Part shown: piece by piece, positions 14,547 to 64,000 of the stretch
How positions within the stretch are numbered: the stretch's first letter is position 1
Layout: every line of letters begins with the position of its first letter
Source: Alkaliphilus metalliredigens QYMF
GTDB lineage: Bacteria; Bacillota; Clostridia; Peptostreptococcales; Natronincolaceae
Direction of reading: 5' to 3'
Assembly: GCF_000016985.1 (NCBI RefSeq)
Contig: NC_009633.1
Coordinates: forward strand, 2,211,539-2,275,538
DNA length: 64,000 nt
Program-made: the position numbers and the translations under genes
Notes under the pieces: generated by a model
What the model saw: the letters and a program-made list of their open reading frames with translations, nothing else
Told to the model about the DNA's origin: nothing
Databases searched by the model: none

Positions 14547-14547
14547 A

Positions 14548-18388: not shown

Positions 18389-19580
18389 AAAGATGATACT
18401 CAATCATTTGGTAGATAAATATGAAAAAAGTTCTTTGTACCGTGGGGATAATAAGGTCAATGTAACCATTGGCATGACCATCAATAAAAAAAACCTATCG
18501 GATTATTTTAATGAATGGGATTATACATTGAAAAAGGAGATCAATGAACAGGCCTTAAGTCTACAGGAGGAAGCGCTCATTGAAATCCAGTGGAAGAAGT
18601 TTCAAGAGGGAAACATCCTAGACAAATTAAAATTGAACATTGAATCACTGGATCGTGTTTATGAAGTATTAAAAAGACAGCCAAAGAGTCAGCTAGAGAA
18701 TGACGTTGGCACCATTGTCATGGGTTATTGTGATAGAACGGATTGGCTGGGTGATTTTGCAAGGGATATGAAAGAGAAGCTAGTTCAAAAGGGCAGTATT
18801 AAAAAATACTTGGACATAGAGGATCGGGTAGAGGTCAAGGATGTATTCATGGCTCTGGATCAAATACGAGCCCAGACCGATGAAATACCCAAGCGGGTTT
18901 TCAGTATAAGGGTATTTTCAGATTCCAAACGTTTTGAAAGGGTAGAGTCTAAAGTGGTGAGAATCATGAGGGACTACGGGCCCTATGAAGTGGATATGGA
19001 TATATTGGCGGAGGAAAATATTATCCAAAATCCTAGCTATGTCTTTCTGAAGGGAAAAGCTGTACTGCTCTGTAATGAAGAAACAATCAATTTAGAAAAG
19101 GTGGATGGTGAGATTGGTCTAGGTGCTGGTTTAATTGATAATCTAAGCTTCAAGACAATCGATGCAAAGAGAGTTTTAACCATTGAAAATTTAACAACCT
19201 TTCATTGCTATGAACCTAAGGATGAACTGGTGATCTATTTAGGTGGTTATCATAATGCCACAAGACGAAGACTCCTAAAGAAGATCCATGGGTTTAATCC
19301 TGATTTAGCCTTTTACCATTGGGGAGACATTGACCTGGGTGGCTTTAGAATTTTAAATCACCTTAGGAATAAGACTGGTATTAATGTGAAGTCTTATCGG
19401 ATGGATAGAGAGACATTAGAAATGTATAAAAATCATACCAAGAAGATAAAAAGTGAGCAATACAGTGGTGAATTAACAAAACTGTTGGAAAATGAGGAGT
19501 ATATAGAATTCCATGAAGTGATCAGATATATGATTGAGAATAATATGATATTGGAACAGGAAGCATTGGATATAGGATGA
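18375..19580 (+). CDS. jetD: Wadjet JetD (Toprim-domain nuclease subunit, MksG-like)
   Basis: C-terminal Toprim-like 'IYLGGYHN...FYHWGDIDLGGFRIL'. 401 aa. Overlaps jetC by 14 nt. Confidence 0.8.
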   Translation: MKNYKKMILNHLVDKYEKSSLYRGDNKVNVTIGMTINKKNLSDYFNEWDYTLKKEINEQALSLQEEALIEIQWKKFQEGNILDKLKLNIESLDRVYEVLKRQPKSQLENDVGTIVMGYCDRTDWLGDFARDMKEKLVQKGSIKKYLDIEDRVEVKDVFMALDQIRAQTDEIPKRVFSIRVFSDSKRFERVESKVVRIMRDYGPYEVDMDILAEENIIQNPSYVFLKGKAVLLCNEETINLEKVDGEIGLGAGLIDNLSFKTIDAKRVLTIENLTTFHCYEPKDELVIYLGGYHNATRRRLLKKIHGFNPDLAFYHWGDIDLGGFRILNHLRNKTGINVKSYRMDRETLEMYKNHTKKIKSEQYSGELTKLLENEEYIEFHEVIRYMIENNMILEQEALDIG

Positions 19581-43438: not shown

Positions 43439-44095
43439 TTGTTGCACAAGGGATTACTAATTATATTAGTAGGAATACTTCTAATTTCATTTACAGCATG
43501 TGCTGCCACAGAAGAGGAAGTTGAAGTAGTAGCCATTGTAAATAGTCAGGAAATTCGGAGGGTAGATTTTGAAAGCGTAGTAGAGAACACCAAGTTATAT
43601 TACCAACAACAGTTTGGAATAGATTTCCAAAGTGAGGATGACAAAGGATTAATCGCATTGATAGAGGAAGATGCCTTAAATAACCTGATTGAACAGGAAC
43701 TACTTTTACAGAGTACATTAGAAAGGGATTACCAGGTCTCTAAGGATGAATTAAACTATGAAATAGAGCAAATTAAATCCCAGTTTGAAAGTGAAGAAGA
43801 ATTTTCAATGGCTTTGGAGGTAAACCAATTAACCCTAGCATTATTAGAAGAAGACATAGCTAATGAAATCATGCTTAGACAATATATCCAAGATGAAGTC
43901 GGAGACCCCACTGTATCTGAAGAGGAAATGATGGCGATGTATGATGAATACAGCGAAACCATGGAGGATCTACCATCCTTTGAAGAAATACAGCCTCAAT
44001 TACAGGAAGAGATTAAGTATCAAAAGTTTCAAGCCAGCCTTTGGGAGTTGCTTGAAACCTTAAAGGCGGAAGGTAACATAGAGATTTTACTTTAG
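43439..44095 (+). CDS. Acidic lipoprotein with SurA-N-terminal-like chaperone domain (PrsA-like without PPIase domain)
   Basis: Lipobox 'LLISFTAC'. SurA_N-like helical region (VVAIVNSQEIRRVDFESVVEN...). TTG 43439 with RBS aagggag. Confidence 0.5.
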   Translation: MLHKGLLIILVGILLISFTACAATEEEVEVVAIVNSQEIRRVDFESVVENTKLYYQQQFGIDFQSEDDKGLIALIEEDALNNLIEQELLLQSTLERDYQVSKDELNYEIEQIKSQFESEEEFSMALEVNQLTLALLEEDIANEIMLRQYIQDEVGDPTVSEEEMMAMYDEYSETMEDLPSFEEIQPQLQEEIKYQKFQASLWELLETLKAEGNIEILL

Positions 44096-48386: not shown

Positions 48387-50042
48387 ATGAAATTACAACT
48401 GAATAAGCGTCGTATACTTAAGGGAATATTTATTTTTGCTGCTGTATTTATGGTCATAATGGTCATGATACTGACCATATTAGTTGTGGGAGCATATCAG
48501 GAGGACCTTAGTCAGTTAGAGGATCCCTTGCCCAAGGCACTGATTATTTTTGATAAAGAAGAGGAGGTCGTATCGGAACGGTCTTCCGCCCAATTTAATC
48601 CAGTTCCATTATCACAAATACCAGAGGAGTTACTGGCTGCCATTGTTGCCGTTGAAGATCAGCGATTCTATGATCACTCAGGGGTCGACCTTCGGGGGAT
48701 TGTCCGTTCGGCTTGGCGAAATATGCGAGCAGGCTCTATTGTTGAAGGAGGCAGTACCCTGACACAACAATTGGCGAAAAATCTTTTCCTTACGTCGGAA
48801 CGGACATATACTCGTAAATTCAAAGAAGTCATTACCGCCTATCGAATCGAGGGCCAATATAGCAAAGAAGACATATTAGAGTTATATTTAAATCAAATCT
48901 ACTTTGGTGAAGGGACTTGGGGTATTCAGAATGCCGCACAAATTTATTTTGGTAAAGACATAGAAGAAATTACCCTATCTGAAGCAGCACTTTTAGCTGC
49001 CTTACCTAAGGCGCCAACTCATTATTCTCCCTTTAAAAATGAAGAAAAGGCCAAGGAACGACGGAACCTTGTTCTCTATTTACTTCATGATCAAAATGTG
49101 ATTGATGAAAATGAATATGATAGTGCAGTGAATGAGGAAATCATTTTGAGAGATTGGGAATTAGATGTTTTGAGAGGGAAATATCCTAGTTATGTTGACC
49201 ATGTTATTGAAGAAGCCATTCATAAACATGGGTTTGATGAGGAATATCTTTTAACAGGTGGATTACATATTTATACGCAAATGGACGTGGTTGTACAAAC
49301 TGCAATTGAAACCACTTATGAAAACGAGGCACTATTCCCAGAAAATAGTGGCGACGAAATTGTTCAAAGTGCAACTGTTGTGATGGATCCATCTAACGGT
49401 GGCATACGTGGCCTTGTAGGCTATCGTGGGGAGCACTTTCATCGTGGCTATAACCGGGCCACACAGTTAAAAAGACAACCAGGTTCTTCTATAAAGCCAT
49501 TGGCTGTTTATGCACCAGCCTTGGAAAATGGTTATAAACCTGACTCAATGCTAATTGATGAGAAAACAGATTTTAATGGCTATGCACCAAGGAACTACAA
49601 TGACAGCTACCAGGGGAGCGTTAGTCTATCTGATGCATTAGTCTATTCTATTAATGTACCTGCAGTGGCATTGCTACATGAAATAGGGATCGATACTGGT
49701 ATTGGTTTTCTAGAAAAGTCCGGTATTCCAATGCATCAAGACGATCGAAATTTAAGCATCGCACTTGGTGGATTCACAGAGAGGGTTTCTCCTTTAGAAA
49801 TGGCACAAGCATTTAGTATGTTTCCTAACTTAGGCTCAATGAACCAAGCACATGCCATTACAAGAATTACCTCTAGTACGGGTAAAGTTTTATTTGAAGT
49901 TGTTGAAAAAGCAGTTGACGTGATGAAACCAGAAAATGCCTATAGAATGACCCAAATGTTAATGGGAGTTGTTCAAGAAGGGACTGGGAAAAATACAGCC
50001 TCACACCAAAGCTTAGGATCTAATATGACTTTAATATTATGA
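48387..50042 (+). pseudogene. Class A penicillin-binding protein (GT51 transglycosylase + transpeptidase), 3'-truncated before the KTG motif
   Basis: GT51 'EDQRFYDHSGVDLRGIVRSAWRN'. TPase SxxK 'GSSIKP', SxN 'YSIN'. The reading frame ends right after '...GVVQEGTGKNTAS' with an unrelated tail and overlaps the convergent recombinase gene. No KTG(T/S) box. Confidence 0.55.
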
Positions 50043-50929
50043 AAACATTTACTGCCAGTAAGATTAATTGTATACTTTTTCGTTTCTTTATCCTTGAGGA
50101 ATATCTTATCTTTACCAGATGGACGCTGATATGCTATGTAGATTGGATTGGTTAACATATACACAACTTGACTTTGCTTTAAAGGTAAGGGGTCTTTTGA
50201 TGGTTTCATCTCATTGGCAAAGCCTAATAAACCGTCAATTGTAACGTTACTAGATAAATATTCTTCAAAAATTGCTTTCACAATAGGAGCTTCCACTTGA
50301 TGAGGAACTAACTCATATTCATCATCATACTGTTCTAAATATTCATCGACGTTCTCTGTAAGACCAAAAGGGATATGGGCTCCTCTAGAATAGAGTCCTT
50401 TTTCTCTTTTAACCTTTCTTCCTAAGGAAGTTCTTTCGTTGATTTCCTTAGACTCTAGTTCACTGATCCCCATCAGTATATTTTCAATAAAGTCTGAGTA
50501 GTAGTTATTGGAGTCTGCTTGAAATTCACCTGGCGCAGAGTATAGGATCTTCACATTATGTTTTTTACATAGCTTTTTAATACTGAGGAGTTCATTGAAG
50601 TTTCTAGAGAGTCGATCCCTCTTGAAGACGACAAGGGTTTTAAATTTATCCTGTTTCAAGTCATATAATAATTCACAAAAGCCATTTCTTTTGTCATAAG
50701 TATACGTAGATGCAGATTCGCTATCCCAATAGGATTTATATATAAGCAACCCCTTCGAATTAATGACTTGTTTTCCTGTGAAAATTTGAGAGGGGATCGA
50801 GTGACTCTCAGTTTTGATTAATTTTCTAGCATAAATGGCTGCATAGTCATAAGGTGTTAAAAATAAGATATCATCCTCAACGGTTGCAAAGTTTGCGCTG
50901 GGATCATCAACAATGATTTTTTCCTCCAT
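49973..50929 (-). CDS. Serine recombinase (resolvase/invertase-family catalytic + recombinase domains), apparently degenerate or truncated
   Basis: 'AAIYAR...HSIPSQ', 'LVVFKRDRLSRNFNELLSIKKLCKKHNVKIL', 'ERTSLGRKVKREKGLYSRGAHIPFGL'. The expected nucleophile Ser in YxRVS is replaced (YARKL). Only 318 aa; the large-serine-recombinase C-terminal domain is absent. Confidence 0.6.
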   Translation of the reverse strand: MEEKIIVDDPSANFATVEDDILFLTPYDYAAIYARKLIKTESHSIPSQIFTGKQVINSKGLLIYKSYWDSESASTYTYDKRNGFCELLYDLKQDKFKTLVVFKRDRLSRNFNELLSIKKLCKKHNVKILYSAPGEFQADSNNYYSDFIENILMGISELESKEINERTSLGRKVKREKGLYSRGAHIPFGLTENVDEYLEQYDDEYELVPHQVEAPIVKAIFEEYLSSNVTIDGLLGFANEMKPSKDPLPLKQSQVVYMLTNPIYIAYQRPSGKDKIFLKDKETKKYTINLTGSKCFHNIKVILDPKLWCEAVFFPVPS

Positions 50930-51056
50930 TTGAGCCTTCCTTTCTTATGAAATTTTCGTTCAGCATATAATCTAAAATGATATTAATCAATGCGTCTTTA
51001 GCATTTTTATCATTTCTGTAGGTAATTGAAATATTGTGTGTATTAGTATTTTTCAT
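50907..51056 (-). CDS. Small hypothetical ORF (49 aa) upstream of and overlapping the recombinase start; not in the ORF track
   Basis: RBS aaggag 6 nt before ATG (rc of 51054-51056). MKNTNTHNISITYRNDKNAKDALINIILDYML... Confidence 0.2.
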   Translation of the reverse strand: MKNTNTHNISITYRNDKNAKDALINIILDYMLNENFIRKEGSNGGKNHC

Positions 51057-51292
51057 CGACATCTCCTTAAAATATATTCTCAATGAATGAGAATCATTAT
51101 AAAGATTTTAAAAATTGTAAATAGGTTGTTTGATAATATTTCCTGAGCAATGTATTTAATAAATATATTTCTTAAAATCGTTGACTTTAGGCAACAAAAG
51201 TCATAAGAATTTTACGAAAGTACAAATTCTGACTCTATTTGAATGGGAGATTTTTTAAAAGTTATGACTTCGTAAAATTCTTACAACAGATT

Positions 51293-51508
51293 TTAAAAGG
51301 ATGTATGCGCTAGTCCACCATCTGCCATTTCCTTAAGAGAGTTTAAAGCCATAAGATTAGTGTCTTGAACCCCTTCACAGGAATCATAAAATTCACAGTT
51401 GTTTTTACAGTAAGGGGTAGGGCTATACTCAAATGATTCAGTATTACAAATCATTTCACACAGGGCATTTACTTGAGCCACTGCATCCTCGATAAACTTC
51501 TCATCCAC
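51293..51508 (-). CDS. Small Cys-rich hypothetical protein (CxxxCxxxxxC)
   Basis: 'YCKNNCEFYDSCEG'. The frame stays open upstream of the ATG, so it may be a gene fragment. Confidence 0.25.
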   Translation of the reverse strand: MDEKFIEDAVAQVNALCEMICNTESFEYSPTPYCKNNCEFYDSCEGVQDTNLMALNSLKEMADGGLAHTSF

Positions 51509-51577
51509 CTCTTGAACAATTCGTTTGTTTTGCGATAAATTTCAAATATATGAGAATGGTGGACATAAAAAAAGCCC

Positions 51578-52045
51578 CTATGATGCAGAGGCTTTGCTAT
51601 TGCTTACCTTTAAGTTTTTAATAAATTGAAGTTGGCTAATTACATGATCTGCTATAGAGTGAATTTTATCGACATCGCATTGATATTCTGAAATAGTGGC
51701 TAAGTAAGAGTGAATGAGGGTATTTAACTGTTCGTTGATAATATGAATTTGATCACTTGAGTCATTGGGCATTTCTTTGATAAGTACCTTCTTAACTGCT
51801 TCCTCAATATATAAACTTCTTATATCGATAGAATTGGTTTGTAATAGCTCACCTAAAGAAACACCAAGGGAATTTGTAATTCTATCTAGAAGACCAAGTC
51901 TAAAGACCTCATGATTTCCATTTTCAACGTTGCTCAATTGGCCAGTTGAAATATTAATATGCTTTGCAAATTCCACAGAAGTTAAGTTTTTTTCTTTCCT
52001 ATAATTTCTAATGTTTTTACCTAAGGTTTTATGGATATCAGACAT
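51578..52045 (-). CDS. XRE-family HTH transcriptional regulator
   Basis: 'LGKNIRNYRKEKNLTSVEFAKHINISTGQLSNVENG'. RBS aggggggag. Confidence 0.85.
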   Translation of the reverse strand: MSDIHKTLGKNIRNYRKEKNLTSVEFAKHINISTGQLSNVENGNHEVFRLGLLDRITNSLGVSLGELLQTNSIDIRSLYIEEAVKKVLIKEMPNDSSDQIHIINEQLNTLIHSYLATISEYQCDVDKIHSIADHVISQLQFIKNLKVSNSKASAS

Positions 52046-52348
52046 GGATCTCCCCCCTATAGGTGAGAGTCTTTACCAAAATATGAAATATACACAAATC
52101 TAGGTATTATGTACATAGGCTCTGAAGGCACTTTGATCCAAAATAACTTTAACATGAATTGTACTATGTTAGCTTACATGTTGAATATTAAGGAAAATAA
52201 AGGGTTAATAGGATTAATATAGAAACTAGACATATGCTAGAACATAGAAATTACATTTTTCAATTGAGTGATAGTGTCAGTAGTATATTTGGTATAGCAC
52301 TTATAGATATTAAAACATCTATATCTAGTGTTGAGGGAGGAGATTTTA

Positions 52349-53296
52349 ATGTCTAAGGTATCAAATGCCCTAAATATGTACTTTTTACTACAAGTCAGAG
52401 GAGCGATGAGGGTTAAAGAAATTGCGGAAGCACTAGAGGTAACTCCTAGGATGGTAAAAAAGTATAAGCAAGATTTAGAAATGGCAGGGATATATGTAGG
52501 CTCTAAACTAGGAAGAGCTGGAGGGTACTACTTAGAAAATAAGAGAAGATTAGATGCCATTGGCCTTACTGAAGAAGAGCTAATTACCTTGAAAATGGCA
52601 AACAAAACAATACAAAGCGGAAAATATCACTACCAATCAAGGTTTGAAACTACAGTAAACAAAATATTAAATTGCAATCAACACACAGAGGAAATTAATT
52701 ATCATAACAAGTCAATGAGAGAATCAGATGAAATTCTAAAAAAAGAAAAGCATACATGGGTAGATATAAATATTGCAGTTAACCAAAACAGAAGAGCGTC
52801 CATAAAATACAAATCTTTAAAAAAGCATGGAATAGAAATAAGAGAACGATTAGTCAATCCATATGGGATTTTTGATTATAAAGGGGCTACATATTTTTAT
52901 GGTTATTGCGATACCGCAAAGGACATACGATTTTTCAAACTGTCTCGAGTTATTGAATATAGGGTATTAGATGAAAAATTTACTGGGAATACTGACTTTA
53001 ATTTTGATAAAGTATTAGAAAAATCCTTTGGAATATACAATGATGAGTTCATAGATCTTAAATTAAATATTTCTTATCCTATGAGTGAAATTGTAAAGGA
53101 AAAACAGATCGCAAAGGATCAAAGGATAACAGAAATAGATGAGAAAACCATATGCTTTGAAGCAAAAATAAAGGGCTATGCAGAAATAAAAACATGGGTC
53201 ATGAGTCTTGGGAGTAGTGCTGAGGTAATACAACCATCAAAGTTGAAAGAAGAGATTATAGCGGAAGCCCATAAGATGACAAAGATATATCAGTAG
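52349..53296 (+). CDS. wHTH-WYL domain transcriptional regulator (CapW/BrxR-like), likely cas-operon regulator
   Basis: N-terminal wHTH 'MRVKEIAEALEVTPRMVKKYKQDLEMAGIYV'. WYL-like core 'YFYGYCDTAKDIRFFKLSRVIEY'. Encoded directly upstream of the cas operon. RBS gagggaggag before ATG 52349. Confidence 0.7.
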   Translation: MSKVSNALNMYFLLQVRGAMRVKEIAEALEVTPRMVKKYKQDLEMAGIYVGSKLGRAGGYYLENKRRLDAIGLTEEELITLKMANKTIQSGKYHYQSRFETTVNKILNCNQHTEEINYHNKSMRESDEILKKEKHTWVDINIAVNQNRRASIKYKSLKKHGIEIRERLVNPYGIFDYKGATYFYGYCDTAKDIRFFKLSRVIEYRVLDEKFTGNTDFNFDKVLEKSFGIYNDEFIDLKLNISYPMSEIVKEKQIAKDQRITEIDEKTICFEAKIKGYAEIKTWVMSLGSSAEVIQPSKLKEEIIAEAHKMTKIYQ

Positions 53297-53377: not shown

Positions 53378-55065
53378 TAGGTAATTGCGAAACTAAATTT
53401 GAAAAGTAGTTAGAAGGGCAGAAAATTGATTGCTGATTAAATTTTTTATAGAGACAAGGCGTACCGGTTAACTATGCAATAAGTGGTTTTAAACTTCTGA
53501 TGTATTTGTGTTGATGTATTTTATCAGCAAGTATAACAGTAACGAGCTGGGTGATACCAGCAAGCAATAAATCAGCATGTAATGTTTTAGCATTCTGTGT
53601 TCTTCGATTAGCAATACAAAAGCTATCTTTAAAATGGTTAATGGTTTGTTCAACTACACCTCTATTTTTATAGGTTTCATCCCAATCATCTGTGCCCCGA
53701 ATGGTACCAGGATAAGCACGTAAGTCTTTTTCAGGATACACATAAATCATTCGACCACAAGGTGATGAAGTACAGGGATTATCGCAGTTATGTCGACGTC
53801 GATACTTGCCGTCTCCACATTTAGTCCAAGACATTTTAGGACAGACAAACTTGAAAGTAGGAATACCACACCGAAGATGAGAAGTATTGCCTTCGGGCTT
53901 CATAGGTAGTTTAGGATCATGAGGACAACAGGGAATCCCATCTTCAGTAAGAGTGTATTCAGAGCTGCTAAGGGAAGACCTAGGATTTAGGGGGATATAA
54001 GCTTTATTGAACTTTAAATCCGAAAAAATTCCTTTGTAGATAGATATGGTATCAAAAGCAGCATCCCCGATGAAGGTATCTGGTTGAATGAGTGGATGTT
54101 TATTAAAAAAGTCAGATAACACTGGTAAAAGAGCTTTTGCATCACCAAGGGACTTATCTTCATCAGGAGAGTTAGATTTTTTGTCAACAACAATGTCAGG
54201 ATGAGCATTCATAAAATCTTGATCGTAAAAAGTAATATCACGCACAATACCAAGACCATTGGTGAGCATCCCAAATTTATAGACATAACAAAAATGACCA
54301 TTGATGTAAAGCTGCTTAATTTCTGGATTAGCCGCTGCATGAGAAGGCATGGAACCATAGGCTGCTTTATACGGATCATAGGAATCATCAAGGTTATGAG
54401 CCTTTTTAAAAGCTTTAAGTTGTTTAATAATTTTATTAGCGTATTTAGGATTGTTTTCAGTAACAAAAGCTTCAATGCCAGAAGTATCAAAGATAGTCAT
54501 AGAAGCCTTATGAGGATCAATAGCCTGGCAAACAGGTTCAGTGACATCCACAAGATGCTCAAAGAATGACTGTAAGTCTGGCAAAAAATCTTGTTTGAAC
54601 CTAGTAAATCTAGAAGCATCAGGTACATTGGTGAAACCACAAAAATCTCTAAGTTCCTTAGAAAACTGAAGAAAAGTCAGCAACAATGTATCGTTTGGAA
54701 TGGAGAAAATCCGCTGCAGAAGCAAAGCCCAAACCATTGATGTAAGATGATGTTTTCTAGGTCTGCCAGTAGATGCATAGTAATTACGATGAAAAGAAAG
54801 AGGTATTATCTCATTAAGATTAAGGTTTTCTTTTAAAAGAGAAAGAAAGTGATGTTTATCATTTTCAAAATAATTGGCACAATCGGAATGAATTTCAGCC
54901 AAAGAAAGCTGTTTATGTGGTAAAATAGCCATATATAACTCCTTTCAGGTTGGGTGAATTTGTTTCTGTCAATTCAATTTTACCACAATCTGGTGAGGAG
55001 TTATATTTTTTTATGCTTAAAAAAGTCCCGCAATAGTGCGGGTTGCGGCGTTTTGCAAACGCCTA
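53378..55065 (-). mobile_element. Insertion sequence (IS5/IS1182-family-like), 1688 bp, with imperfect terminal inverted repeats
   Basis: Left end TAGGTAATTGCGAAAC versus rc of right end TAGGCGTTTGCAAAAC (12/16 identical). Flanked by the 12-bp direct repeat. Carries a single transposase gene. Confidence 0.65.
53472..54932 (-). CDS. DDE transposase (IS5/IS1182 family; N-terminal DUF772-like region and Cys-rich insert)
   Basis: 'GRPRKHHLTSMVWALLLQRIFSIPNDTLLLTFLQFSKELRDFCGF' (DUF772-like). 'FIGDAAFD'. Cys cluster 'CPKMSWTKCGDGKYRRRHNCDNPC'. Confidence 0.7.
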   Translation of the reverse strand: MAILPHKQLSLAEIHSDCANYFENDKHHFLSLLKENLNLNEIIPLSFHRNYYASTGRPRKHHLTSMVWALLLQRIFSIPNDTLLLTFLQFSKELRDFCGFTNVPDASRFTRFKQDFLPDLQSFFEHLVDVTEPVCQAIDPHKASMTIFDTSGIEAFVTENNPKYANKIIKQLKAFKKAHNLDDSYDPYKAAYGSMPSHAAANPEIKQLYINGHFCYVYKFGMLTNGLGIVRDITFYDQDFMNAHPDIVVDKKSNSPDEDKSLGDAKALLPVLSDFFNKHPLIQPDTFIGDAAFDTISIYKGIFSDLKFNKAYIPLNPRSSLSSSEYTLTEDGIPCCPHDPKLPMKPEGNTSHLRCGIPTFKFVCPKMSWTKCGDGKYRRRHNCDNPCTSSPCGRMIYVYPEKDLRAYPGTIRGTDDWDETYKNRGVVEQTINHFKDSFCIANRRTQNAKTLHADLLLAGITQLVTVILADKIHQHKYIRSLKPLIA

Positions 55066-55077
55066 ATACTACAATTA
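55066..55077. repeat. 12-bp direct repeat ATACTACAATTA (right copy of the putative TSD)
   Basis: See left copy. Confidence 0.6.
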
Positions 55078-55097
55078 AAATGAAAGGAGGTGGAGAA

Positions 55098-55826
55098 GTG
55101 AGATTTGGTGTAGAAATTTTTTTAGAAAAAGAAATGTTACCTAAGGACAAAAACAGGATTATTTTATCAATCATTAAAAATTGCTTTAGTAGTTGCAATA
55201 AGGAGTACTATAAAGCCTTATATAAAGATACTCCCAATCAAACAAAAGATTTTACTTTCTCATTATACCTAGGTGATTGCAAATTTTTAAGAGAAGAGAT
55301 TTTAGTGCCTAGCAAGAAAATTTATTTGAATTTCTCTACATACCATAATGAGGATGGGATTATGTTCTTCAACTCTATGTTAATGAACAAAGGAAAAGCT
55401 TTTTCTATAAGAGATAACACATATACAATTGGTAAAATAAATTTGAAGAGGGAAAAATTAATCACTGAGCATCAAGTAATCTTTAAAACAATGAGTCCTA
55501 TTGTAGCTAGGGAACATCAAGGAGATAACAAAAAAACTTGGTACCACTCACTCAACACGGAAGAAGGACAAGCTGTTTTCCTAGAAAATCTTCAATATCA
55601 ATTGAAAGATGCGTTTGGAGAAGGGATTTTAATGGATTCTAGAAAGCTTAGTATAGAAGTATCCCAAGACAACAAAGAAGTGAAGGTAAAAAACTATGGG
55701 ATCGAAATACTTTCTAATTTAGCTAAGATTAGGATTCAGGGAGCACCTTATATCTTAGACTATCTATATAAAGCTGGGATAGGAAGCAAGAGAGGCAGTG
55801 GATTTGGCATGGTAGATATTGTGTAG
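55098..55826 (+). CDS. cas6: CRISPR endoribonuclease Cas6 (type I-B)
   Basis: Gly-rich loop 'GIGSKRGSGFGMV' near the C-terminus. GTG start after aaaggagg. First gene of the cas operon. Confidence 0.85.
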   Translation: MRFGVEIFLEKEMLPKDKNRIILSIIKNCFSSCNKEYYKALYKDTPNQTKDFTFSLYLGDCKFLREEILVPSKKIYLNFSTYHNEDGIMFFNSMLMNKGKAFSIRDNTYTIGKINLKREKLITEHQVIFKTMSPIVAREHQGDNKKTWYHSLNTEEGQAVFLENLQYQLKDAFGEGILMDSRKLSIEVSQDNKEVKVKNYGIEILSNLAKIRIQGAPYILDYLYKAGIGSKRGSGFGMVDIV

Positions 55827-55839
55827 AGGGGGTGAGATA

Positions 55840-57503
55840 GTGGCACAAAGAATACGATTGGAAATGAATGATTGGCTATATAATGCAGGGCTAGTAGGAT
55901 TATATAATATTTTAGTTCATTCCGGAGAAAAGGTAAAAATGAATGAACAAGGAATCGAAATGGATCAATCTCAACTAGAAAACTTTGAAGAAAGGTACTT
56001 CACTTACTTTATTGAGAAATATGAAGTATATTTGTCCTGGTATAAGATCATATCATACAAAGATGTACTTACTTATCATCAAAAACAAAACTTTAATAGT
56101 TTTGGAGAAGAAGAACTAGATTCATTAAATCAGTATATAAAAGACGTTAAGCATTACTTGAGTAGCAATAGCTACAAAGCTGCATATGAACTCATCGGAA
56201 GTCAAGTGACTCTCTTAGAACTTGCAAAGAAATTGCAAACGATCAAGTTAAAGAAGAAAGAAACAATTGGAGAAAAGTTGATAGAAATTAAAGAGACAGT
56301 GAATAAATTAAATGAAATTATTGGCCACTGTATGGAGGAAGATTATAAGAAGTATTTAGCAGGTAAAAATGTTATTTATACGATTATCAAAAATGGATGG
56401 AATGGGGTAAGTATCCTAAATCCACAGACAAAAGAAAAAGACATATATATGGATTATAAGAATTATTTCGTGAAACCAGTTGAAGATTACATGGGTGATG
56501 ATAAAAGCACGAAAAAGTATAATTGTTTTACATGTGATAGAGAAATGAAAGACTTGAAGAATGACTTAAGCTTCTTGAATCAGGTTGGTTTCGATGTTAG
56601 CAGAAAAGCGTCTCACACTTGGGACTTTGTCAACGATATTGCAATCTGTCCGATCTGTAAACTTGTCTTTTCTTGTGTGCCTGCGGGGATGACATATGTT
56701 TACTCGAAAGGTATTTATATTAATGACAATAATAGTTTTCAAAGGGCAGTCAATGTAAACCAGAGAATAAAAAGTGAGATTTTAAAAGAACATGAGGACA
56801 ACCGGTTGTTAACCTATAGGGCCTTAGTTAAATCTATTCAAGAGCAGATTCATGAGAAAATTAAATATGAATTGGCTGATATTCAAGTAATTAGATACGA
56901 AGAGGAGAAGTACAGGTTTAATATCTTAACAAGACAAATGATAAAAATTATTCAACAATCTAAACATAGTTTAGGATATATTCACAATAGTGGATTTAAA
57001 GAAGTGAACACATATTTTAATATTTACGAGCTAGTAATTGAACGAGTATTGAATAATCAAAACCTATTTACACTTATACATAAGCTTCTTTCGTACAAAC
57101 TATCAAGCCCTAAGAATTGTAGATTTACAACATCGCAAGTTATTAGTGTTTTGGAAATAAACTTTAGATTTTTGGAAGGGATGGGCTATATGCAAAATGC
57201 AGATCAAGATATGATTAAAAAGGCAAATGTATCAGGCTATTACCTGCGAGAGCAATATAAAGTAAAAGGAGCAAAGGATAAGTTAAATGGAGTTTCTTAC
57301 CGTCTATTAAATGCACTGAAAACTAACAAAAAAGATATGTTTATGGATACTTTATTAAACTGTTATCTGTATGCTCAAAAGACAGTACCTAGTATATTCT
57401 TGGATGCCTTAGAGGATGAGGAAAAATATAAGACAATAGGATATGCTTTTGTGGCTGGATTAATTGAAGGTAAAGACCATCAAAATAAAGAGGGGGATCA
57501 ATA

Positions 57504-57504
<1 letters not shown>
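55840..57504 (+). CDS. cas8b: Cas8b (Csh1) large subunit, type I-B
   Basis: N-terminal 'WLYNAGLVGL'. Zn-finger-like 'CFTCD...CPICK'. Size and position between cas6 and cas7. Confidence 0.8.
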
Positions 57505-59154
<1,650 letters not shown>

Positions 59155-59175
59155 AAATGATATAGGAGGAAAACA

Positions 59176-61407
59176 ATGAAACGATATCTAGCAAAATCTA
59201 ATCCGGAAGAAACCATCCAGGAGCATACGGATCATTTGATTGAAAACTATAAGCTGTTAAAATTAATATATCCCAATTTACAAGTAAATTGGGATATATT
59301 ATATCTTGCATGCCTTTATCATGATTTAGGTAAAATGAACTTGAAGTTTCAAGATAAGATTAAAGGAATAAAAAAATCGGAAGACGAAATTCCCCATGGA
59401 ATTTTAAGTCTAGCGTTTATTAATTCAAAAGAGTTGAAAGATAAAGGGTTTAGTAAAAGCGATATAAAAATTTTAGCCCATGCCATCGCCTATCATCATG
59501 AAAGAGAGTTTAACTATGATCACAATGACATTAAAGAAGAAATAGAGTTGTTAAAAGGTGAAGGCATCCATTTTAGCTATGATAAGATAGAAAAAATAAG
59601 TGTCAAAAATTTAAGCGCAAAATATTTTTCCAAGGATAGAATTTATCAGCAAGAGGATGAAGAAATGTTTTTATCATATATCAAGGTAAAAGGCCTATTA
59701 AATCGAATTGACTATGCTTCTAGTGGAGATATAGACATAGAAGTGAAAAACAACTTCTTAAACAATTGTTTAAGAGATTTGATGAAAGAATGGCAAGAAA
59801 AAAACTCCAATGCAGAATGGAATGAATTACAAAGGCATATGCTCTTTCATAAAAATGATAATGTCATCGCTATTGCAGAAACGGGCATGGGGAAAACAGA
59901 AGCGGGTCTTTTATGGATTGGAGATAACAAAGGATTTTTTACGCTTCCACTTAAAACTGCTATCAATGCCATGTATGATCGTATCGCATTAGACATGATA
60001 AAAGAAGGCTATGAAAATAAAATTGGATTACTACATTCTGATACTTATAGTGAATACTTGAATCGAGATGGAGAGGCAATTGACATTGATGAATATTATA
60101 ACAAGACCAAACAATTATCCCTGCCGTTAACAATATGTACATTAGACCAAATTTTTGATTTTGTTTACCGATACAGAGGATTTGAGTCTAAGTTAGCTAC
60201 TTTAGCATATGCTAAGGTTGTGATTGATGAGGTTCAAATGTACTCAGCAGATTTACTAGCATATCTAATCATTGGATTGTCTTATATTACAAAAATTGGA
60301 GGCAAGTTTGCCATACTGACAGCCACTTTACCAGATTTGGTGCTGGATTTGTTACAAGAGGAAGAGATAACTTTTGTTTCTCCTAAAACCTTTACCAACA
60401 ATCAAAGGATTCGTCATAGTGTAAAAGTCCTCAATGAACAACTAAACCACAATACTGTTCTGGATTTATACAATGAAAACAAAGTATTAGTAATTTGTAA
60501 TACGGTAAAGGAAGCTCAAAGGATGTATAAGCTGTTGAAGGATTCAAAGAAAATAAGGAATTTGAATTTATTTCATAGTAACTTTATCAAGAAGGACCGT
60601 AAGGAAAAAGAAAAACAGATACTAGAAATAGGGCATAGGGAGTCTAAGCAATATGGGGTATGGGTAACGACTCAGGTAGTAGAAGCTTCTTTAGATATTG
60701 ATTTTGATATACTTATTACTGAATTATCAGATTTGAATGGACTCTTTCAACGAATGGGCAGATGCTACAGAGGGAGAGAGTGGGAGAAAGACGGATATAA
60801 CTGCTATGTATTTGATGGAGGAGCAGAAGAGTGTAGTGGTATTGGATATGTCATAGATGAGGATATTTTTCAATTATCCAAAACAGCGTTACAAGATGTT
60901 GGGGGGGAGTTAAAAGAAGAAAAGAAGATGAACTTGGTTCAATCTTTATATACTACAGAAAATTTAAAGGCTACAAAGTATTATAAACAAATCAAAAGTA
61001 ATATAGACTATGTAACCAGTATAGAAGACCATGAAAAATCTAAAAACGAAGTAAAGAAAATATTTAGGAATATCCATTCTATTACAGTAATTCCAAGAGA
61101 AGTATATGAAGAAAATCAAGAAGCAATTAGTGAGTATATTCTTATCTTATCCAAAAACTACAGTAAGCTCATGGATGAAGAAGAAAGAAGGGTACTAAGA
61201 ACAAAAAAGTCGGTCATTAGAAGTCGGTTAATGGAGTTTACGATGAGTGTGCCCTATCATAGGGGGCAAGGTAATATCATAAAAAATATCAATATCAATC
61301 GATATGAGTCTATTCCTATACTCAATTGCAACTACTCTAAAGAGTTAGGGATTCAGTACATTGAACAAAGTAAAGTGAAAAAGGCTCCATTTGATAATTT
61401 CATATAA
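59176..61407 (+). CDS. cas3: Cas3 HD nuclease-helicase fusion
   Basis: HD 'LACLYHDLGK', 'IAYHHE'. Helicase motifs 'AETGMGKTEA', 'VVIDEVQMY'. Confidence 0.9.
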   Translation: MKRYLAKSNPEETIQEHTDHLIENYKLLKLIYPNLQVNWDILYLACLYHDLGKMNLKFQDKIKGIKKSEDEIPHGILSLAFINSKELKDKGFSKSDIKILAHAIAYHHEREFNYDHNDIKEEIELLKGEGIHFSYDKIEKISVKNLSAKYFSKDRIYQQEDEEMFLSYIKVKGLLNRIDYASSGDIDIEVKNNFLNNCLRDLMKEWQEKNSNAEWNELQRHMLFHKNDNVIAIAETGMGKTEAGLLWIGDNKGFFTLPLKTAINAMYDRIALDMIKEGYENKIGLLHSDTYSEYLNRDGEAIDIDEYYNKTKQLSLPLTICTLDQIFDFVYRYRGFESKLATLAYAKVVIDEVQMYSADLLAYLIIGLSYITKIGGKFAILTATLPDLVLDLLQEEEITFVSPKTFTNNQRIRHSVKVLNEQLNHNTVLDLYNENKVLVICNTVKEAQRMYKLLKDSKKIRNLNLFHSNFIKKDRKEKEKQILEIGHRESKQYGVWVTTQVVEASLDIDFDILITELSDLNGLFQRMGRCYRGREWEKDGYNCYVFDGGAEECSGIGYVIDEDIFQLSKTALQDVGGELKEEKKMNLVQSLYTTENLKATKYYKQIKSNIDYVTSIEDHEKSKNEVKKIFRNIHSITVIPREVYEENQEAISEYILILSKNYSKLMDEEERRVLRTKKSVIRSRLMEFTMSVPYHRGQGNIIKNININRYESIPILNCNYSKELGIQYIEQSKVKKAPFDNFI

Positions 61408-61421
61408 AAAATGGGATTAGG

Positions 61422-61922
61422 GTGAGAGATATGCAAAAGATAACAGGTGTAATGGTGTACTATTATTTTGTCTGTCAAAGAAAACTATGGTTTTTTAGTC
61501 GTCACTATACAATGGAAGACAATAGTGAGTTGGTAAGTATGGGAAAATTGATAGACGAAACCTCATATAAAAGAGAAAAGAAAAATATTCTAATTGATGA
61601 AGAGATTAATATAGATTTTCTTAAGGATTGGAAAGTGATACACGAAGTTAAAAAGTCAAGAAAAGTGAATGAAGCTTCAAAATGGCAATTAAAATATTAT
61701 ATATGGCTATTGAGAAATAAAGGTGTTGAGATTGAGAAGGGGGTATTAGATTACCCCCTTCTTAGAAAAAGAGAAGATGTGTTTGTGAGTGAAAAGGATG
61801 GAAAAGATTTAAATGAGATATTAGATAAAATAGATGAGATCAGATCATTGAAAATTCCACCTGTGATCAGTACAAAAGGCATATGTAAAAAATGTGCTTA
61901 TTATGAGCTTTGCTACATATAG
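61422..61922 (+). CDS. cas4: Cas4 (RecB-like nuclease with 4Fe-4S Cys cluster)
   Basis: N-terminal 'YYFVCQRKLWFF'. C-terminal 'CKKCAYYELC'. Confidence 0.85.
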   Translation: MRDMQKITGVMVYYYFVCQRKLWFFSRHYTMEDNSELVSMGKLIDETSYKREKKNILIDEEINIDFLKDWKVIHEVKKSRKVNEASKWQLKYYIWLLRNKGVEIEKGVLDYPLLRKREDVFVSEKDGKDLNEILDKIDEIRSLKIPPVISTKGICKKCAYYELCYI

Positions 61923-61932
61923 GAGGGGTAAT

Positions 61933-62925
61933 GTGGGCGAGACTTTTTATATTTTCCAGGATGGTCAATTGAAAAGAAAAGATAATAATATAGTGATGAG
62001 CACATTATCGGGCCAGAAGAAAAATTTGAAATCTGAAGTAACAGATGAAATATATATTTTTGGTGAAATAGAGACAAACAGTAAACTACTTAATTTTTTA
62101 TCCCAGCAAAAAACTACGATGCATATTTTTAATTATTATGGTTTTTATAGTGGGAGCTTTTACCCTAGAGAAAGTAACGTAAGTGGACATTTGCTTGTAA
62201 ATCAAGTGAAAAAATATGATAATACTGAAGAACGAGTAAGAATTGCAAAAGAGATGTTGAAATCTGCTGCTCATAACATATACAGAAATTTAAGGTATTA
62301 CAATGGTAGAGGAACTGATGTTGAATCAGCTATGAAAGATATTCAGAGATTGATTAAGCGTTTAGATTACTGTGCAAGTATTCATGAACTTATGGGAACT
62401 GAGGGAAACATCAGAAAAATATACTACTCTACTTGGAATGCAATAGTGAAACAAGATATTAGATTTGAAAAAAGAAAGAAAAGACCCCCAGATAATTTGA
62501 TTAATTCATTGCTCTCTTTTGTAAATAGCTTGATTTATACCACTGTGCTGTCTGAAATATATAAGACACAATTAAATCCTACTATCAGTTATTTACATGA
62601 GCCAGGAACCAAGAGGTTTTCTTTATCCTTAGATATAGCAGAGATATTTAAACCTTTAATTGGTGAAAGAATGATATTTTCATTACTTAACAAAAATCAA
62701 ATCACTGAGCAGGATTTTGAAAAAGAATCTAATTACTTGTATTTGAAAGAAGCTGGTAAGAAGAAAATCTTAATAGAGTACGATCAACGACTTAAAAGAA
62801 CATTATTCCATAAAGGGCTGGGGCGAGAAGTTTCTTACCGATACTTGATTAGGTTAGAATGTTATAAGCTGATCAAAGATATTATTGATGAAAAACAATA
62901 TGATGGATTTAAAATTTGGTGGTGA
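61933..62925 (+). CDS. cas1: Cas1 integrase
   Basis: 'TFYIFQDGQLKRKDN', 'LMGTEGNIRKIYY', 'DPTISYLHEPGTKRFSLSLDIAEIFKP'. GTG 61933 after aggagggg. Confidence 0.85.
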   Translation: MGETFYIFQDGQLKRKDNNIVMSTLSGQKKNLKSEVTDEIYIFGEIETNSKLLNFLSQQKTTMHIFNYYGFYSGSFYPRESNVSGHLLVNQVKKYDNTEERVRIAKEMLKSAAHNIYRNLRYYNGRGTDVESAMKDIQRLIKRLDYCASIHELMGTEGNIRKIYYSTWNAIVKQDIRFEKRKKRPPDNLINSLLSFVNSLIYTTVLSEIYKTQLNPTISYLHEPGTKRFSLSLDIAEIFKPLIGERMIFSLLNKNQITEQDFEKESNYLYLKEAGKKKILIEYDQRLKRTLFHKGLGREVSYRYLIRLECYKLIKDIIDEKQYDGFKIWW

Positions 62926-62929
62926 GCAT

Positions 62930-63208
62930 ATGTATATCATTTTAATGTATGATATAATGATGGACAAGACTGGAGCCAAGGTACAGAGAAATACTTTTAA
63001 AATTTGCAAAAGGTATTTAACCCATATACAAAATTCTGTATTTGAAGGAAACTTGACGGAGTTAAACTTGATGAAATTGAAGAAAGAATTAAGTGAATAC
63101 ATCCGAAAGGAGCAAGATTCATTTATCATATTTAACAGTAGAGATGAGAAGTGGCTAACAAAAGAATTTTTAGGAAAAGAAGATGATAAAACATCTAATT
63201 TTTTTTAG
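62930..63208 (+). CDS. cas2: Cas2
   Basis: 'MYIILMYDIMMDKTGAKVQRNTFKICKRYLTHIQNSVFEG', the canonical Cas2 N-terminus. RBS ggtggtgag. Confidence 0.9.
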   Translation: MYIILMYDIMMDKTGAKVQRNTFKICKRYLTHIQNSVFEGNLTELNLMKLKKELSEYIRKEQDSFIIFNSRDEKWLTKEFLGKEDDKTSNFF

Positions 63209-63391
63209 AAACTCATCTGTCGACCTATGGTAGTGTAAAAAATAAGGGAGATAGACAATGATTGATAGCAACATGAATAAAAGGTATTTTGTGAAGAATT
63301 CATTTTTAGAAATACTTAATTTTTTGTAAAAGCTGTGGTTAGACAGGATATTAGCCAATAAGCCAGTTGTTTGAACGCTTTTAAGTGAACG

Positions 63392-64000
63392 CCCTTTAAT
63401 TGAACTAGAGTAGAATGTAAATGGTGTTACTGGACATAATAAATATTGCACCAGACTGCCTTTAATTGAACTAGAGTAGAATGTAAATAATAATTGTGAT
63501 GTGACTTAAATTATCCTTTGCTGCCTTTAATTGAACTAGAGTAGAATGTAAATTTTGGAGTAATTTGCAATCTGCTATATAATCCCTCCCCTTTAATTGA
63601 ACTAGAGTAGAATGTAAATTTGCATTGGCAAGCAATTCTAAAGCTTCGGTATTATCCCTTTAATTGAACTAGAGTAGAATGTAAATTTTTAAAACCATTA
63701 GAAAAGTCTTGTGGTGATGCAGTCCTTTAATTGAACTAGAGTAGAATGTAAATTATTTTGCATACATTGCTATAACCCTCAAATCATCTTCCTTTAATTG
63801 AACTAGAGTAGAATGTAAATGTGTTAGAACATTGTAGTAAAAACAGTATCGCCAACCCTTTAATTGAACTAGAGTAGAATGTAAATAAAGTATTCCGCTA
63901 TACTGGTTTTGTTCTTCTCAAAACCTTTAATTGAACTAGAGTAGAATGTAAATAGATTTAACAGTGTTGATACTAACATCATATTTTACACCTTTAATTG
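63392..64000 (+). CRISPR. CRISPR array, 30-bp repeat CCTTTAATTGAACTAGAGTAGAATGTAAAT, 9 complete spacers (35-37 bp), runs off the window end
   Basis: Repeats start at 63392, 63458, 63523, 63589, 63656, 63723, 63790, 63857, 63924 and 63991 (partial). The repeat ends in GAATGTAAAT, typical of Clostridial I-B arrays. Leader 63209-63391 adjoins cas2. Confidence 0.95.

What the first reader, a model, noticed from the sequence alone, without database searches (positions are those of the whole stretch)
48387..50929. Class A PBP gene truncated before its KTG motif and overlapped by a degenerate, short serine recombinase: rearrangement scar at the left edge of the CRISPR-Cas region
The PBP ORF has GT51 and the TPase SxxK and SxN motifs, but ends (….GVVQEGTGKNTAS + unrelated tail) ~10-15 aa before where KTG(T/S) is expected. 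Its last 70 nt overlap the 3' end of a convergent serine recombinase. That recombinase lacks the usual nucleophile Ser context (YARKL instead of YxRVS), has 28 extra N-terminal residues, and at 318 aa lacks the large-recombinase C-terminal domain.

Inference: an integrative element inserted into the PBP gene and later decayed. The element plausibly includes the XRE/WYL regulators and the whole type I-B CRISPR-Cas locus, which extends beyond the window. The downstream PBP remainder might lie past 64 kb.
Basis: partly seen in the sequence, partly recalled or inferred. Interest (0 to 1): 0.55.

Follow-up and report, generated by a model that had tools for sequence, protein, structure and literature searches.

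The report
Deletion scar: dead PBP meets dead recombinase
A cell-wall synthase gene and a mobile-element recombinase gene in Alkaliphilus metalliredigens have both lost their ends and are fused tail to tail, most likely by one ordinary deletion, so this is genome decay and not a working system.

Summary
The window is Alkaliphilus metalliredigens QYMF.

**PBP.** The class A PBP ORF (48387-50042) keeps GT51, SxxK and SxN. It matches full-length orthologues (646-690 aa) only to codon 538, at nt 50000, just before KTG.

**Recombinase.** The convergent serine recombinase ORF (49973-50929) matches its ~515-540 aa relatives only to codon ~311. Its nucleophile Ser is Leu (TCA>TTA). The N-terminal extension is normal for this family.

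**Junction.** It lies inside both coding sequences, at a 5-nt microhomology (RCAGC, 49996-50000). It has no att-like sequence.

**Module.** In relatives the recombinase is "rec1" of a conserved module: XRE, PDDEXK nuclease, 46-aa ORF, rec1, rec2. Here rec2 is absent and the PDDEXK gene is cut to its last ~80 codons. The missing parts should lie on the PBP side.

**Reading.** This is most likely a non-site-specific deletion joint. It is not an att junction, and nothing shows that the PBP was the integration target or that CRISPR-Cas is cargo. No PBP or rec1 remainder is in the 64 kb. I could not search the rest of the genome, so an inversion or a displaced remainder is not excluded.

**Side result.** The same module lies in elements that split sporulation genes (ylbJ, cotJC) in other organisms.

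The parts
48387..50000 (+). Class A PBP pseudogene, homologous part (codons 1-538): TM anchor, GT51 domain, transpeptidase domain with SxxK (367) and SxN (421), no KTG
   Evidence: Pfam and NCBIfam matches. 85.8% nt identity to the intact orthologue in L001, ending exactly at 50000. Motifs.
50001..50042 (+). Unrelated 13-codon tail (SHQSLGSNMTLIL) plus stop. It is the antisense of recombinase codons
   Evidence: Identity to L001 is lost after 50000. Translation.
49996..50000 (.). Junction: 5-nt microhomology ACAGC (GCAGC in both parental-type sequences) shared by PBP codons N-A-A and the antisense of rec1 codons Q-A-A
   Evidence: Nucleotide comparison with the L001 PBP and the rec1 genes of L091, L092 and L002.
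49994..50929 (-). rec1 remnant: large serine recombinase codons 1 to ~312 of an expected ~515-540. Resolvase domain plus the first 60% of the Recombinase domain. Zinc-ribbon and coiled-coil region missing
   Evidence: Pfam, tblastn end points 49991-50018, alignment A2.
49973..49993 (-). Unrelated recombinase tail (FFPVPS plus stop). It is the antisense of PBP codons
50819..50821 (-). TTA (Leu) codon at the position of the catalytic Ser (TCA/TCT in relatives)
   Evidence: Confirmed by the independent Logan contig L106.
50907..51083 (-). Small ORF. Its 3' part (50934-51029) is homologous to the conserved 46-aa ORF that precedes rec1 in relatives
   Evidence: tblastx and tblastn against L002. Gene order in L002 and L091.
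51293..51541 (-). Remnant of the module's PDDEXK_1 (Cas4-like) nuclease gene. Only the last ~80 of ~250-267 codons remain, indicating a second internal deletion
   Evidence: tblastn: L002 PDDEXK residues 187-267, L091 186-243, L092 176-246.
51578..52058 (-). XRE-family HTH regulator (155 aa, apparently intact) plus 13 nt upstream. This marks the end of module homology
   Evidence: Pfam HTH_19/HTH_3. 39-48% identity to the XRE proteins of L092 and L091. blastn to L091 reaches 52058.
52328..53296 (+). Context, no demonstrated link to the element: WYL/WCX transcriptional regulator
   Evidence: Pfam.
53472..54932 (-). Context: IS1182-family transposase between the WYL gene and cas6
   Evidence: Pfam DUF772 and DDE_Tnp_1. 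NCBIfam transpos_IS1182 is the best match but weak: 60.9 bits against a cut-off of 270.
54954..64000 (+). Context: type I-B-like cas operon (cas6, cas8b-like CXXC, cas7, cas5, cas3, cas4, cas1, cas2) and a CRISPR array from ~63459 that runs off the window
   Evidence: Pfam. Repeats visible.

Best explanation
The boundary at 49996-50000 is a non-site-specific (illegitimate, microhomology-associated) deletion joint.

**Inferred starting state.** An integrative element carrying the module XRE, PDDEXK nuclease, 46-aa ORF, rec1, rec2 lay downstream of, or possibly within, a complete class A PBP gene. Its recombinase genes pointed towards the PBP.

**Inferred event.** One deletion removed:
- the last ~130 PBP codons, including KTG;
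- whatever lay between the two genes;
- the element's far arm and rec2;
- the last ~210 codons of rec1.

This fused the two convergent genes inside their coding sequences.

**Shown.**
- Both genes end at the same 5-nt microhomology.
- rec2 and both C-termini are absent from the window.
- The recombinase lacks its nucleophile.
- The PDDEXK gene carries a second deletion.

**Inferred consequences.**
- The recombinase remnant cannot cut or bind DNA as an integrase, so what is left of the element (about 49994-52058) is immobile.
- The PBP product cannot be a DD-transpeptidase. At best it is a membrane-anchored glycosyltransferase with a crippled second domain.
- The lost sequences are gone rather than relocated.
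For: **1. Coincident end points.**
- PBP DNA homology to the intact orthologue stops at 50000.
- rec1 homology stops at 49991-49999.
- The two share RCAGC.

**2. The break is inside rec1's Recombinase domain.**
- It falls at Pfam profile position 64/102.
- Real att sites of this element family lie outside the recombinase genes.
- In L094 the element splits ylbJ exactly at TIGR02871 profile position 91|92.
- That element has a direct repeat CAAGTGGTTAYCC and inverted termini TAGTGGGTGC.
- No such sequence is present at the window junction.

**3. Module order.**
- XRE > PDDEXK > orf > rec1 > rec2 is conserved, at DNA level, over ~4.9 kb in L091 and L092.
- In the window rec2 is absent. Its only tblastn hit is the paralogous match onto rec1.
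- The place where rec2 should be is occupied by the PBP.

**4. Further decay in the same remnant.**
- Ser>Leu at the nucleophile.
- PDDEXK reduced to ~80 codons.
- Both are confirmed by independent reads.

**5. No remainder found.**
- No PBP residues 539-668 and no rec1 residues beyond 308 anywhere in the 64 kb, at E<=10.
- No protein of this genome matched a profile of both C-termini.

**6. The PBP looks dispensable.**
- Another organism keeps only a 3' fragment of this orthologue (L084).
- The closest intact copy (L001) shares no flanking synteny.
Against: - The rest of the 4.93-Mb chromosome could not be searched, so 'lost' is not proven.
- The ancestral sequences are known only from 50-86% identical relatives, so the 5-nt microhomology is approximate and could be chance.
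- The PBP remnant shows no further decay. It has an open frame of 538 codons and dN/dS 0.12 against L001. The event is therefore recent, or the truncated protein is still under selection.
- rec1's 311 codons and the XRE gene are also still open.
- The junction itself is supported only by the reference assembly. The independent contigs stop at 50241.
Confidence: 0.6

Rival explanations
1. The element integrated site-specifically into the PBP gene as a gene-intervening element. XRE, WYL and the type I-B CRISPR-Cas locus are its cargo, and the PBP 3' part survives at the distal end beyond 64 kb. The recombinase decayed afterwards.
For: - Relatives of this recombinase module do sit in elements that split genes: ylbJ in L094, with both halves found, and cotJC in L092.
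- Relatives can carry several kb of defence-type cargo on the XRE side (L091).
- So a long XRE-side arm containing CRISPR-Cas is conceivable.
Against: - The junction is inside rec1's coding sequence, not at an element terminus. A secondary deletion is needed in any case.
- In both informative relatives the 5' half of the split gene lies on the XRE side and is co-oriented with rec1/rec2. Here the PBP 5' part is on the rec2 side and convergent.
- No family-type terminal motif lies near 50000 or right of XRE.
- No PBP 3' fragment is in the window or among this genome's proteins.
- Module homology stops at 52058, 270 nt before the WYL gene.
Confidence: 0.12
2. An inversion, not a deletion. Breakpoints in the PBP and in rec1 inverted the segment between them, possibly including WYL, the IS, cas and the CRISPR array. 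The reciprocal junction (PBP 3' part on the minus strand abutting the rec1 3' part and rec2) would then lie to the right of the window.
For: - An inversion predicts exactly the observed convergent 5'-part/5'-part arrangement.
- It would leave both remnants otherwise intact, as seen.
- Nothing in the window contradicts it.
Against: - No protein from this genome resembling the rec1 C-terminus was retrieved.
- The rec1 query returned no protein of this genome other than the query itself (P0121), so no rec2-like paralogue was seen. Both searches are word-seeded and protein-only, so this is weak evidence.
- Strand-composition tests were uninformative.
- An inversion needs two joints where one deletion suffices.
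Confidence: 0.15
3. Artefact or trivial lesion. Either a misassembly or a frameshift/sequencing error makes an intact PBP look truncated, or the PBP is naturally short.
For: The junction itself is seen only in the reference assembly. The independent contigs stop 240 nt short of it.
Against: - No KTG-containing frame follows in any of the three frames.
- Homology is replaced by genuine recombinase antisense sequence, not by shifted PBP sequence.
- Among the 120 best hits, the only other protein under 640 aa is one of 619 aa on a 3.7-kb contig, and the ten closest orthologues are 667-691 aa.
- The adjacent lesions are confirmed at 100% identity by two independent runs.
- A chimeric misassembly at a 5-nt overlap in a finished genome is unlikely.
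Confidence: 0.04

Closest known systems
Class A (bifunctional GT51 + transpeptidase) penicillin-binding proteins, PBP1A family (TIGR02074). Nearest named models are streptococcal PBP2A and PbpC-type
   Same: Same TM anchor, GT51 domain with the EDxxF motif, linker, and transpeptidase fold with SxxK and SxN. 86% identical over 538 residues to a 668-aa metagenomic orthologue, and 73-75% to Anaerobacillus and Bacillaceae PBPs.
   Different: Ends about 7 residues before KTG. It lacks the last ~64 positions of the 535-position family profile and carries a 13-residue tail that is antisense recombinase sequence. It cannot be a complete transpeptidase.
Large serine recombinases/integrases (Resolvase + Recombinase + zinc-ribbon/coiled-coil; e.g. 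XisF, CcrA/CcrB, SprA, SpoIVCA)
   Same: Resolvase catalytic domain with the conserved YxR and DRLSR motifs, and the start of the Recombinase domain. Its full-length relatives are 514-540 aa with a Cys-rich ribbon and a long helical C-terminus. The best named models are XisF and CcrA/B, far below their cut-offs.
   Different: The nucleophile Ser is Leu. The protein stops at about residue 311 of ~520, so the zinc-ribbon/coiled-coil DNA-binding and synapsis region is absent. The subfamily is small and divergent. It has 32 hits in the 5.8-billion-protein database and none in IMG/VR, and is at most 27% identical to anything in the phage or plasmid collections.
Gene-intervening elements of spore formers (skin in sigK, SPbeta in spsM, gin in gerE; PMC4191935, PMC5595907)
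   Same: Relatives of this recombinase module lie in elements that split sporulation genes. L094 holds a 13.4-kb element in ylbJ with short direct repeats and inverted termini. L092 holds an element in cotJC.
   Different: Those relatives carry two tandem (plus sometimes a third) large serine recombinases instead of one recombinase with a small directionality factor. The window copy is a dead stump with no identifiable termini, and its neighbour, a class A PBP, is not shown to be its target or to be sporulation-specific.
Ordinary deletion-generated pseudogene pairs (illegitimate recombination at short microhomology)
   Same: Two unrelated coding sequences are joined in the middle of conserved domains at a 5-nt shared string, with loss of everything between them.
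   Different: Nothing unusual.

Membership tests
Class A PBP (PBP1A family) | GT51 glycosyltransferase domain with catalytic Glu motif (EDxxF) | tested here: met
   Pfam Transgly E=3e-69 at residues 62-231. EDQRF at residue 90.
Class A PBP (PBP1A family) | Transpeptidase motifs 1 and 2 (SxxK, SxN) | tested here: met
   SSIK at 367 and SIN at 421.
Class A PBP (PBP1A family) | Transpeptidase motif 3 (KTG[T/S]) and a complete transpeptidase fold | tested here: not met
   No KTG in the ORF or in any downstream frame. Pfam profile covered to 230/299 and TIGR02074 to 471/535. Orthologues have AGKTGTTQ eight residues past the break.
Large serine recombinase | Nucleophilic serine in the N-terminal Y-x-R-x-S motif | tested here: not met
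   YARKL in the window against YARKS in all five aligned homologues. Codon TTA against TCA/TCT. Confirmed by independent contig L106.
Large serine recombinase | Resolvase catalytic domain | tested here: met
   Pfam PF00239 E=1.4e-22, profile 1-143/145.
Large serine recombinase | Complete Recombinase domain followed by the zinc-ribbon and coiled-coil C-terminal region | tested here: not met
   PF07508 is matched only at profile 2-64/102. The alignment ends at column ~341 of 581. No C-terminal part elsewhere in the window.
Integrated element with intact att junction (site-specific insertion into the PBP) | The junction lies at an element terminus outside the recombinase ORF, with family-type terminal inverted repeats and a short direct repeat at both ends | tested here: not met
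   The junction is inside rec1. The L094 termini (TAGTGGGTGC inverted, CAAGTGGTTAYCC direct) have no counterpart at 50000 or right of XRE.
Integrated element with intact att junction (site-specific insertion into the PBP) | The other half of the target gene is present at the distal end of the element | not testable with these tools
   Not in the 64-kb window. The genome record is not indexed for walking.
XRE / PDDEXK / orf / rec1 / rec2 module | All five genes present, in the conserved order | tested here: not met
   XRE is intact, PDDEXK keeps only its last ~80 codons, the small ORF is present, rec1 is truncated and rec2 is absent. Reference order comes from L002, L091 and L092.

The most novel reading that the evidence does not exclude
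The stump is what remains of a member of an undescribed family of tandem-serine-recombinase, sporulation-gene-intervening elements. In this reading the class A PBP was its genuine integration target, the WYL/type I-B CRISPR-Cas locus is cargo, and the PBP 3' part (perhaps with the rec1 3' part and rec2) survives beyond the CRISPR array. A cell-wall synthase gene would then have been split by a CRISPR-carrying developmental element.
Probability: 0.08. Interest if true: 0.5.

Novelty: new member of a known kind. Interest (0 to 1): 0.17.

Why it matters
For this locus it matters little.

- Both ORFs are annotated as ordinary proteins in this genome, as 'penicillin-binding protein, 1A family' and 'Resolvase, N-terminal domain'. 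They should be treated as pseudogenes.
- The PBP should not be counted among this organism's functional transpeptidases.
- The recombinase stump should not be used to call an active island, or to argue that the neighbouring CRISPR-Cas locus is mobile.

The more useful by-product concerns the stump's intact relatives. They form a rare, divergent large-serine-recombinase pair (rec1-rec2). In other anaerobic spore formers this pair lies in elements that precisely split sporulation genes (ylbJ, cotJC). That lead is worth following independently of this window.

Tried and rejected
1. **Frameshift or sequencing error.** Six-frame translation of 49700-51100 shows no KTG-containing continuation. Rejected.
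2. **Naturally short PBP.** The closest orthologues are 646-691 aa and continue through KTG. Rejected.
3. **attP inside the recombinase gene, as in SSV1 or Mx8.**
   - I considered this because the A. hydrothermalis homologue P0123 also diverges near the same position.
   - There, an overlapping downstream ORF and fragmented rec2 ORFs point to a frameshifted pseudogene. I inferred this from the gene calls and did not confirm it by alignment.
   - The true att sites of L094 lie outside the recombinase genes. Rejected.
4. **Remainder elsewhere in the window.** tblastn of full-length homologues at E<=10 found nothing.
5. **Remainder elsewhere in the genome.**
   - A chimeric profile of the PBP C-terminus plus the rec1 C-terminus found no protein from this genome. 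This is negative but weak.
   - Walking with the look-up of encoding contigs failed because the NCBI record is not indexed.
6. **att-like repeats.**
   - A 13-mer spanning the junction recurs at 43986 inside a SurA-like gene, with no extended similarity.
   - A 15-nt inverted match (48945 and 52069) and other short repeats are at chance level.
   - The L094/L092 terminal motif TTTCTAGTG is not found in the expected place.
7. **Strand-composition test for a recent inversion.** GC skew and four-fold-site skews per gene were too noisy.
8. **Synteny with the closest intact PBP locus (L001).** Similarity is confined to the gene itself, so the ancestral downstream sequence cannot be reconstructed.
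9. **Phage or plasmid origin of the module.** No IMG/VR hit. At most 27% identity in the phage and plasmid collections.
10. **Literature.** Nothing on this locus or on tandem-recombinase intervening elements in ylbJ or cotJC in the papers searched.
Full report
**What is there**

The window comes from Alkaliphilus metalliredigens QYMF. Both ORFs are 100% identical to proteins of that genome, on a contig of 4,929,566 bp.

The PBP ORF is 48387..50042(+), 551 aa. The recombinase ORF is 49973..50929(-), 318 aa. They exist as described and overlap by 70 nt.

**The PBP**

- Pfam finds a full GT51 domain at residues 62-231.
- The transpeptidase match covers residues 329-542 and stops at profile position 230 of 299.
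- NCBIfam PBP_1a_fam is covered to 471/535, while the intact orthologue P0002 covers all 535 positions.
- EDQRF, SSIK (SxxK) and SIN (SxN) are present. KTG is not.
- The ten closest orthologues are 667-691 aa, and nearly all of the rest are 646 aa or longer. All six orthologues I inspected read ...GKNAAL.RPTAGKTGTTQLP... across the break.
- At DNA level the closest intact copy (L001, a metagenomic contig) is 85.8% identical from 48370 to exactly 50000, and unrelated beyond.
- No frame downstream contains the KTG region, so this is not a frameshift.
- dN/dS against L001 is 0.12 with no internal lesions. The truncation is therefore recent relative to that divergence, or the remnant is still useful.

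**The recombinase**

- Pfam finds a complete Resolvase domain but only positions 2-64 of 102 of the Recombinase domain.
- Its relatives are few: 32 hits in the 5.8-billion-protein database. The closest full-length ones are 514-540 aa and 48-53% identical.
- In an alignment of five of them, the motif AAIYARKS is invariant. The window has AAIYARKL.
- The codon is TTA where relatives have TCA or TCT. The nucleophile has been lost by one transition.
- Homology ends at ...DPKLWCEA(V), about codon 311. Relatives continue with ALKYLNxKR, a Cys-rich ribbon and a ~170-residue helical tail.

**The junction**

- On the + strand the window reads GGGAAAAATACAGCC|TCACACCAAAG.
- The PBP orthologue reads GGAAAAAATGCAGCC|CTGGAC.
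- The reverse complement of the rec1 orthologue in L091, derived by hand from the forward sequence printed, reads ...TTTAAAGCAGC|TTGAATCC.
- The window follows the PBP up to RCAGC and follows rec1 antisense from RCAGC onward.
- The two truncations therefore coincide at a ~5-nt microhomology, 49996-50000.
- This is what an illegitimate-recombination joint looks like. It does not resemble a serine-integrase att site.

**What the recombinase belonged to**

Context look-ups show that this recombinase (rec1) is part of a conserved module: XRE regulator, PDDEXK_1 nuclease (~250-267 aa), a 46-aa ORF, rec1, and an overlapping second large serine recombinase, rec2 (~530-556 aa).

- The module is seen in L091, L092 and, in decayed form, in A. 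hydrothermalis (L002/L003).
- L091 and L092 are alignable at DNA level from about 30 nt upstream of XRE to the end of rec2, and not beyond.
- In the window the XRE gene is intact (51578-52045).
- Only the last ~80 codons of the nuclease gene survive (51293-51541).
- The small ORF is present, rec1 is cut and rec2 is missing.
- Homology to the module ends at 52058, 270 nt before the WYL gene.
- By the module's orientation, the rec1 3' end, rec2 and the cargo that follows them should lie to the left of 49994, which is where the PBP now is.

**What real ends of such elements look like**

L094 holds more distant relatives of rec1 and rec2 (about 34% identity). There the sporulation gene ylbJ is split exactly.

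- ORF 5576-5941 matches TIGR02871 positions 7-91.
- ORF 19321-20229 matches positions 92-342.
- The ~13.4 kb between them carries three serine recombinases, an XRE gene and restriction-modification-like genes.
- The ends show a direct repeat CAAGTGGTTAYCC and inverted termini TAGTGGGTGC/GCACCCACTA.

In L092 the module lies 1.6 kb from a cotJC gene cut after about 50 codons, next to a similar TTTCTACTAGTG string.

In both cases the 5' half of the target lies on the XRE side and is co-oriented with rec1/rec2, and the att site is outside the recombinase genes.

The window junction has none of these properties. It lies inside rec1, on the rec2 side, with the PBP convergent, and without the motif or any convincing repeat.

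**Interpretation**

The simplest account is a single deletion whose end points fell in the PBP and in rec1. It removed the PBP 3' end, any intervening host DNA, the element's far arm, rec2 and the rec1 3' end.

- The Ser>Leu change and the second deletion in the nuclease gene show that the stump is decaying.
- Two independent sequencing runs reproduce both lesions at 100% identity.
- The stump cannot act as an integrase, since it lacks both the nucleophile and the DNA-binding C-terminal region.
- The PBP product cannot be a transpeptidase. Residual glycosyltransferase activity is possible but is only an inference.
- This PBP looks accessory. Its closest intact copy has no flanking synteny. Its nearest named relatives are in Bacillaceae. 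Another organism retains only a 3' fragment of it (L084).

**What remains open**

I could not search the rest of the chromosome.

- The genome record is not indexed for walking.
- A profile combining the two missing C-termini retrieved no protein of this genome. That is weak negative evidence.

An inversion would place the reciprocal junction beyond the CRISPR array. An original insertion into the PBP would leave a distal PBP 3' fragment. Neither is excluded, and I give them about 0.15 and 0.12. Composition-based tests for inversion were uninformative. An assembly artefact is unlikely, but the junction itself is not covered by the independent contigs.

**Comparison with known things, and verdict**

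- The PBP is a class A PBP by its GT51, SxxK and SxN features, but fails the KTG/complete-domain criterion.
- The recombinase is a large serine recombinase by descent. It fails the nucleophile and C-terminal-domain criteria.
- The junction fails the criteria for an att site.

The locus is therefore a pair of pseudogenes created by ordinary genome decay at the edge of a defence-rich region. The window also holds Wadjet, a type I-B CRISPR-Cas locus and an IS1182-family transposase.

Interest is low. The one lead worth keeping lies outside the finding: the rec1-rec2 module appears to mark a little-known group of elements that split sporulation genes.

Noticed in passing
L094 5576-20229 (metagenome contig Ga0208826_1000155): A complete ~13.4-kb element splits the sporulation gene ylbJ exactly at TIGR02871 profile position 91|92. 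It has a direct repeat CAAGTGGTTAYCC and inverted termini TAGTGGGTGC. It carries three large serine recombinases (rec3 divergent, rec1-rec2 tandem), an XRE gene and restriction-modification-like cargo. It may belong to an undescribed family of tandem-recombinase intervening elements.
   Followed up: partly
L092 5960-13100 (GCA_009711765.1, VEND01000135.1): The order is cotJA, cotJB, then cotJC cut after ~50 codons (60-aa ORF). A SpoIID-like gene and the XRE-PDDEXK-rec1-rec2 module follow. This is a second sporulation gene interrupted by an element with this module. The contig ends before the other half.
   Followed up: partly
L002/L003 7668-13189 (Alkaliphilus hydrothermalis JAFBEE010000031.1): The same module in a second Alkaliphilus species is also decaying. 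rec1 appears frameshifted (373-aa ORF plus an overlapping 215-aa ORF), rec2 is broken into three ORFs, and an IS21 element follows. A third serine recombinase and an MrpR/HNH gene lie upstream.
   Followed up: partly
window 13137-19580: A complete Wadjet anti-plasmid system: JetA, a JetB-like DUF4194 protein, a JetC-like SMC ATPase and JetD.
   Followed up: no
window 2696-9214 (GC ~0.28): A low-GC block encodes three proteins. One is a 912-aa protein with two RNA polymerase alpha C-terminal domains plus a sigma-70 region 4. One is a 404-aa protein with no Pfam match. One is an 856-aa SNF2-type helicase with a weak N-terminal PLD-like match. An HNH_2 gene lies upstream at 649-1521. It looks like a defence island of unclear type.
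   Followed up: no
window 53472-54932 (-): An IS1182-family transposase gene sits between the WYL/WCX regulator gene and cas6, possibly uncoupling the regulator from the cas operon.
   Followed up: no
window 63459-64000: A CRISPR array with the 30-nt repeat CCTTTAATTGAACTAGAGTAGAATGTAAAT runs off the end of the window, with at least 8 repeats visible.
   Followed up: no
L084 9746-10576 (ENA ERZ27301263 contig; the same fragment is in GCA_007126525.1): Another organism retains only a 276-aa 3' fragment of this PBP orthologue (83% identical to the window PBP where they overlap). It lies inside a contig, next to a full 821-aa class A PBP. This PBP paralogue seems to be lost repeatedly.
   Followed up: no
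L093, L106, L107 (Logan assemblies of SRR9436252 and SRR9436253): Short contigs 100% identical to window 57945-63421, 50241-52143 and 51175-52552. They are independent reads of this strain. The fragmented contigs may come from transcriptome data, in which case the XRE-to-rec1 stump would be transcribed.
   Followed up: no
window 49991-50003 and 43986-43998: An exact 13-mer, AAATACAGCCTCA, spans the junction and recurs inside a SurA-like gene 6 kb upstream. There is no similarity beyond the 13 nt, so I judged it a chance match.
   Followed up: yes
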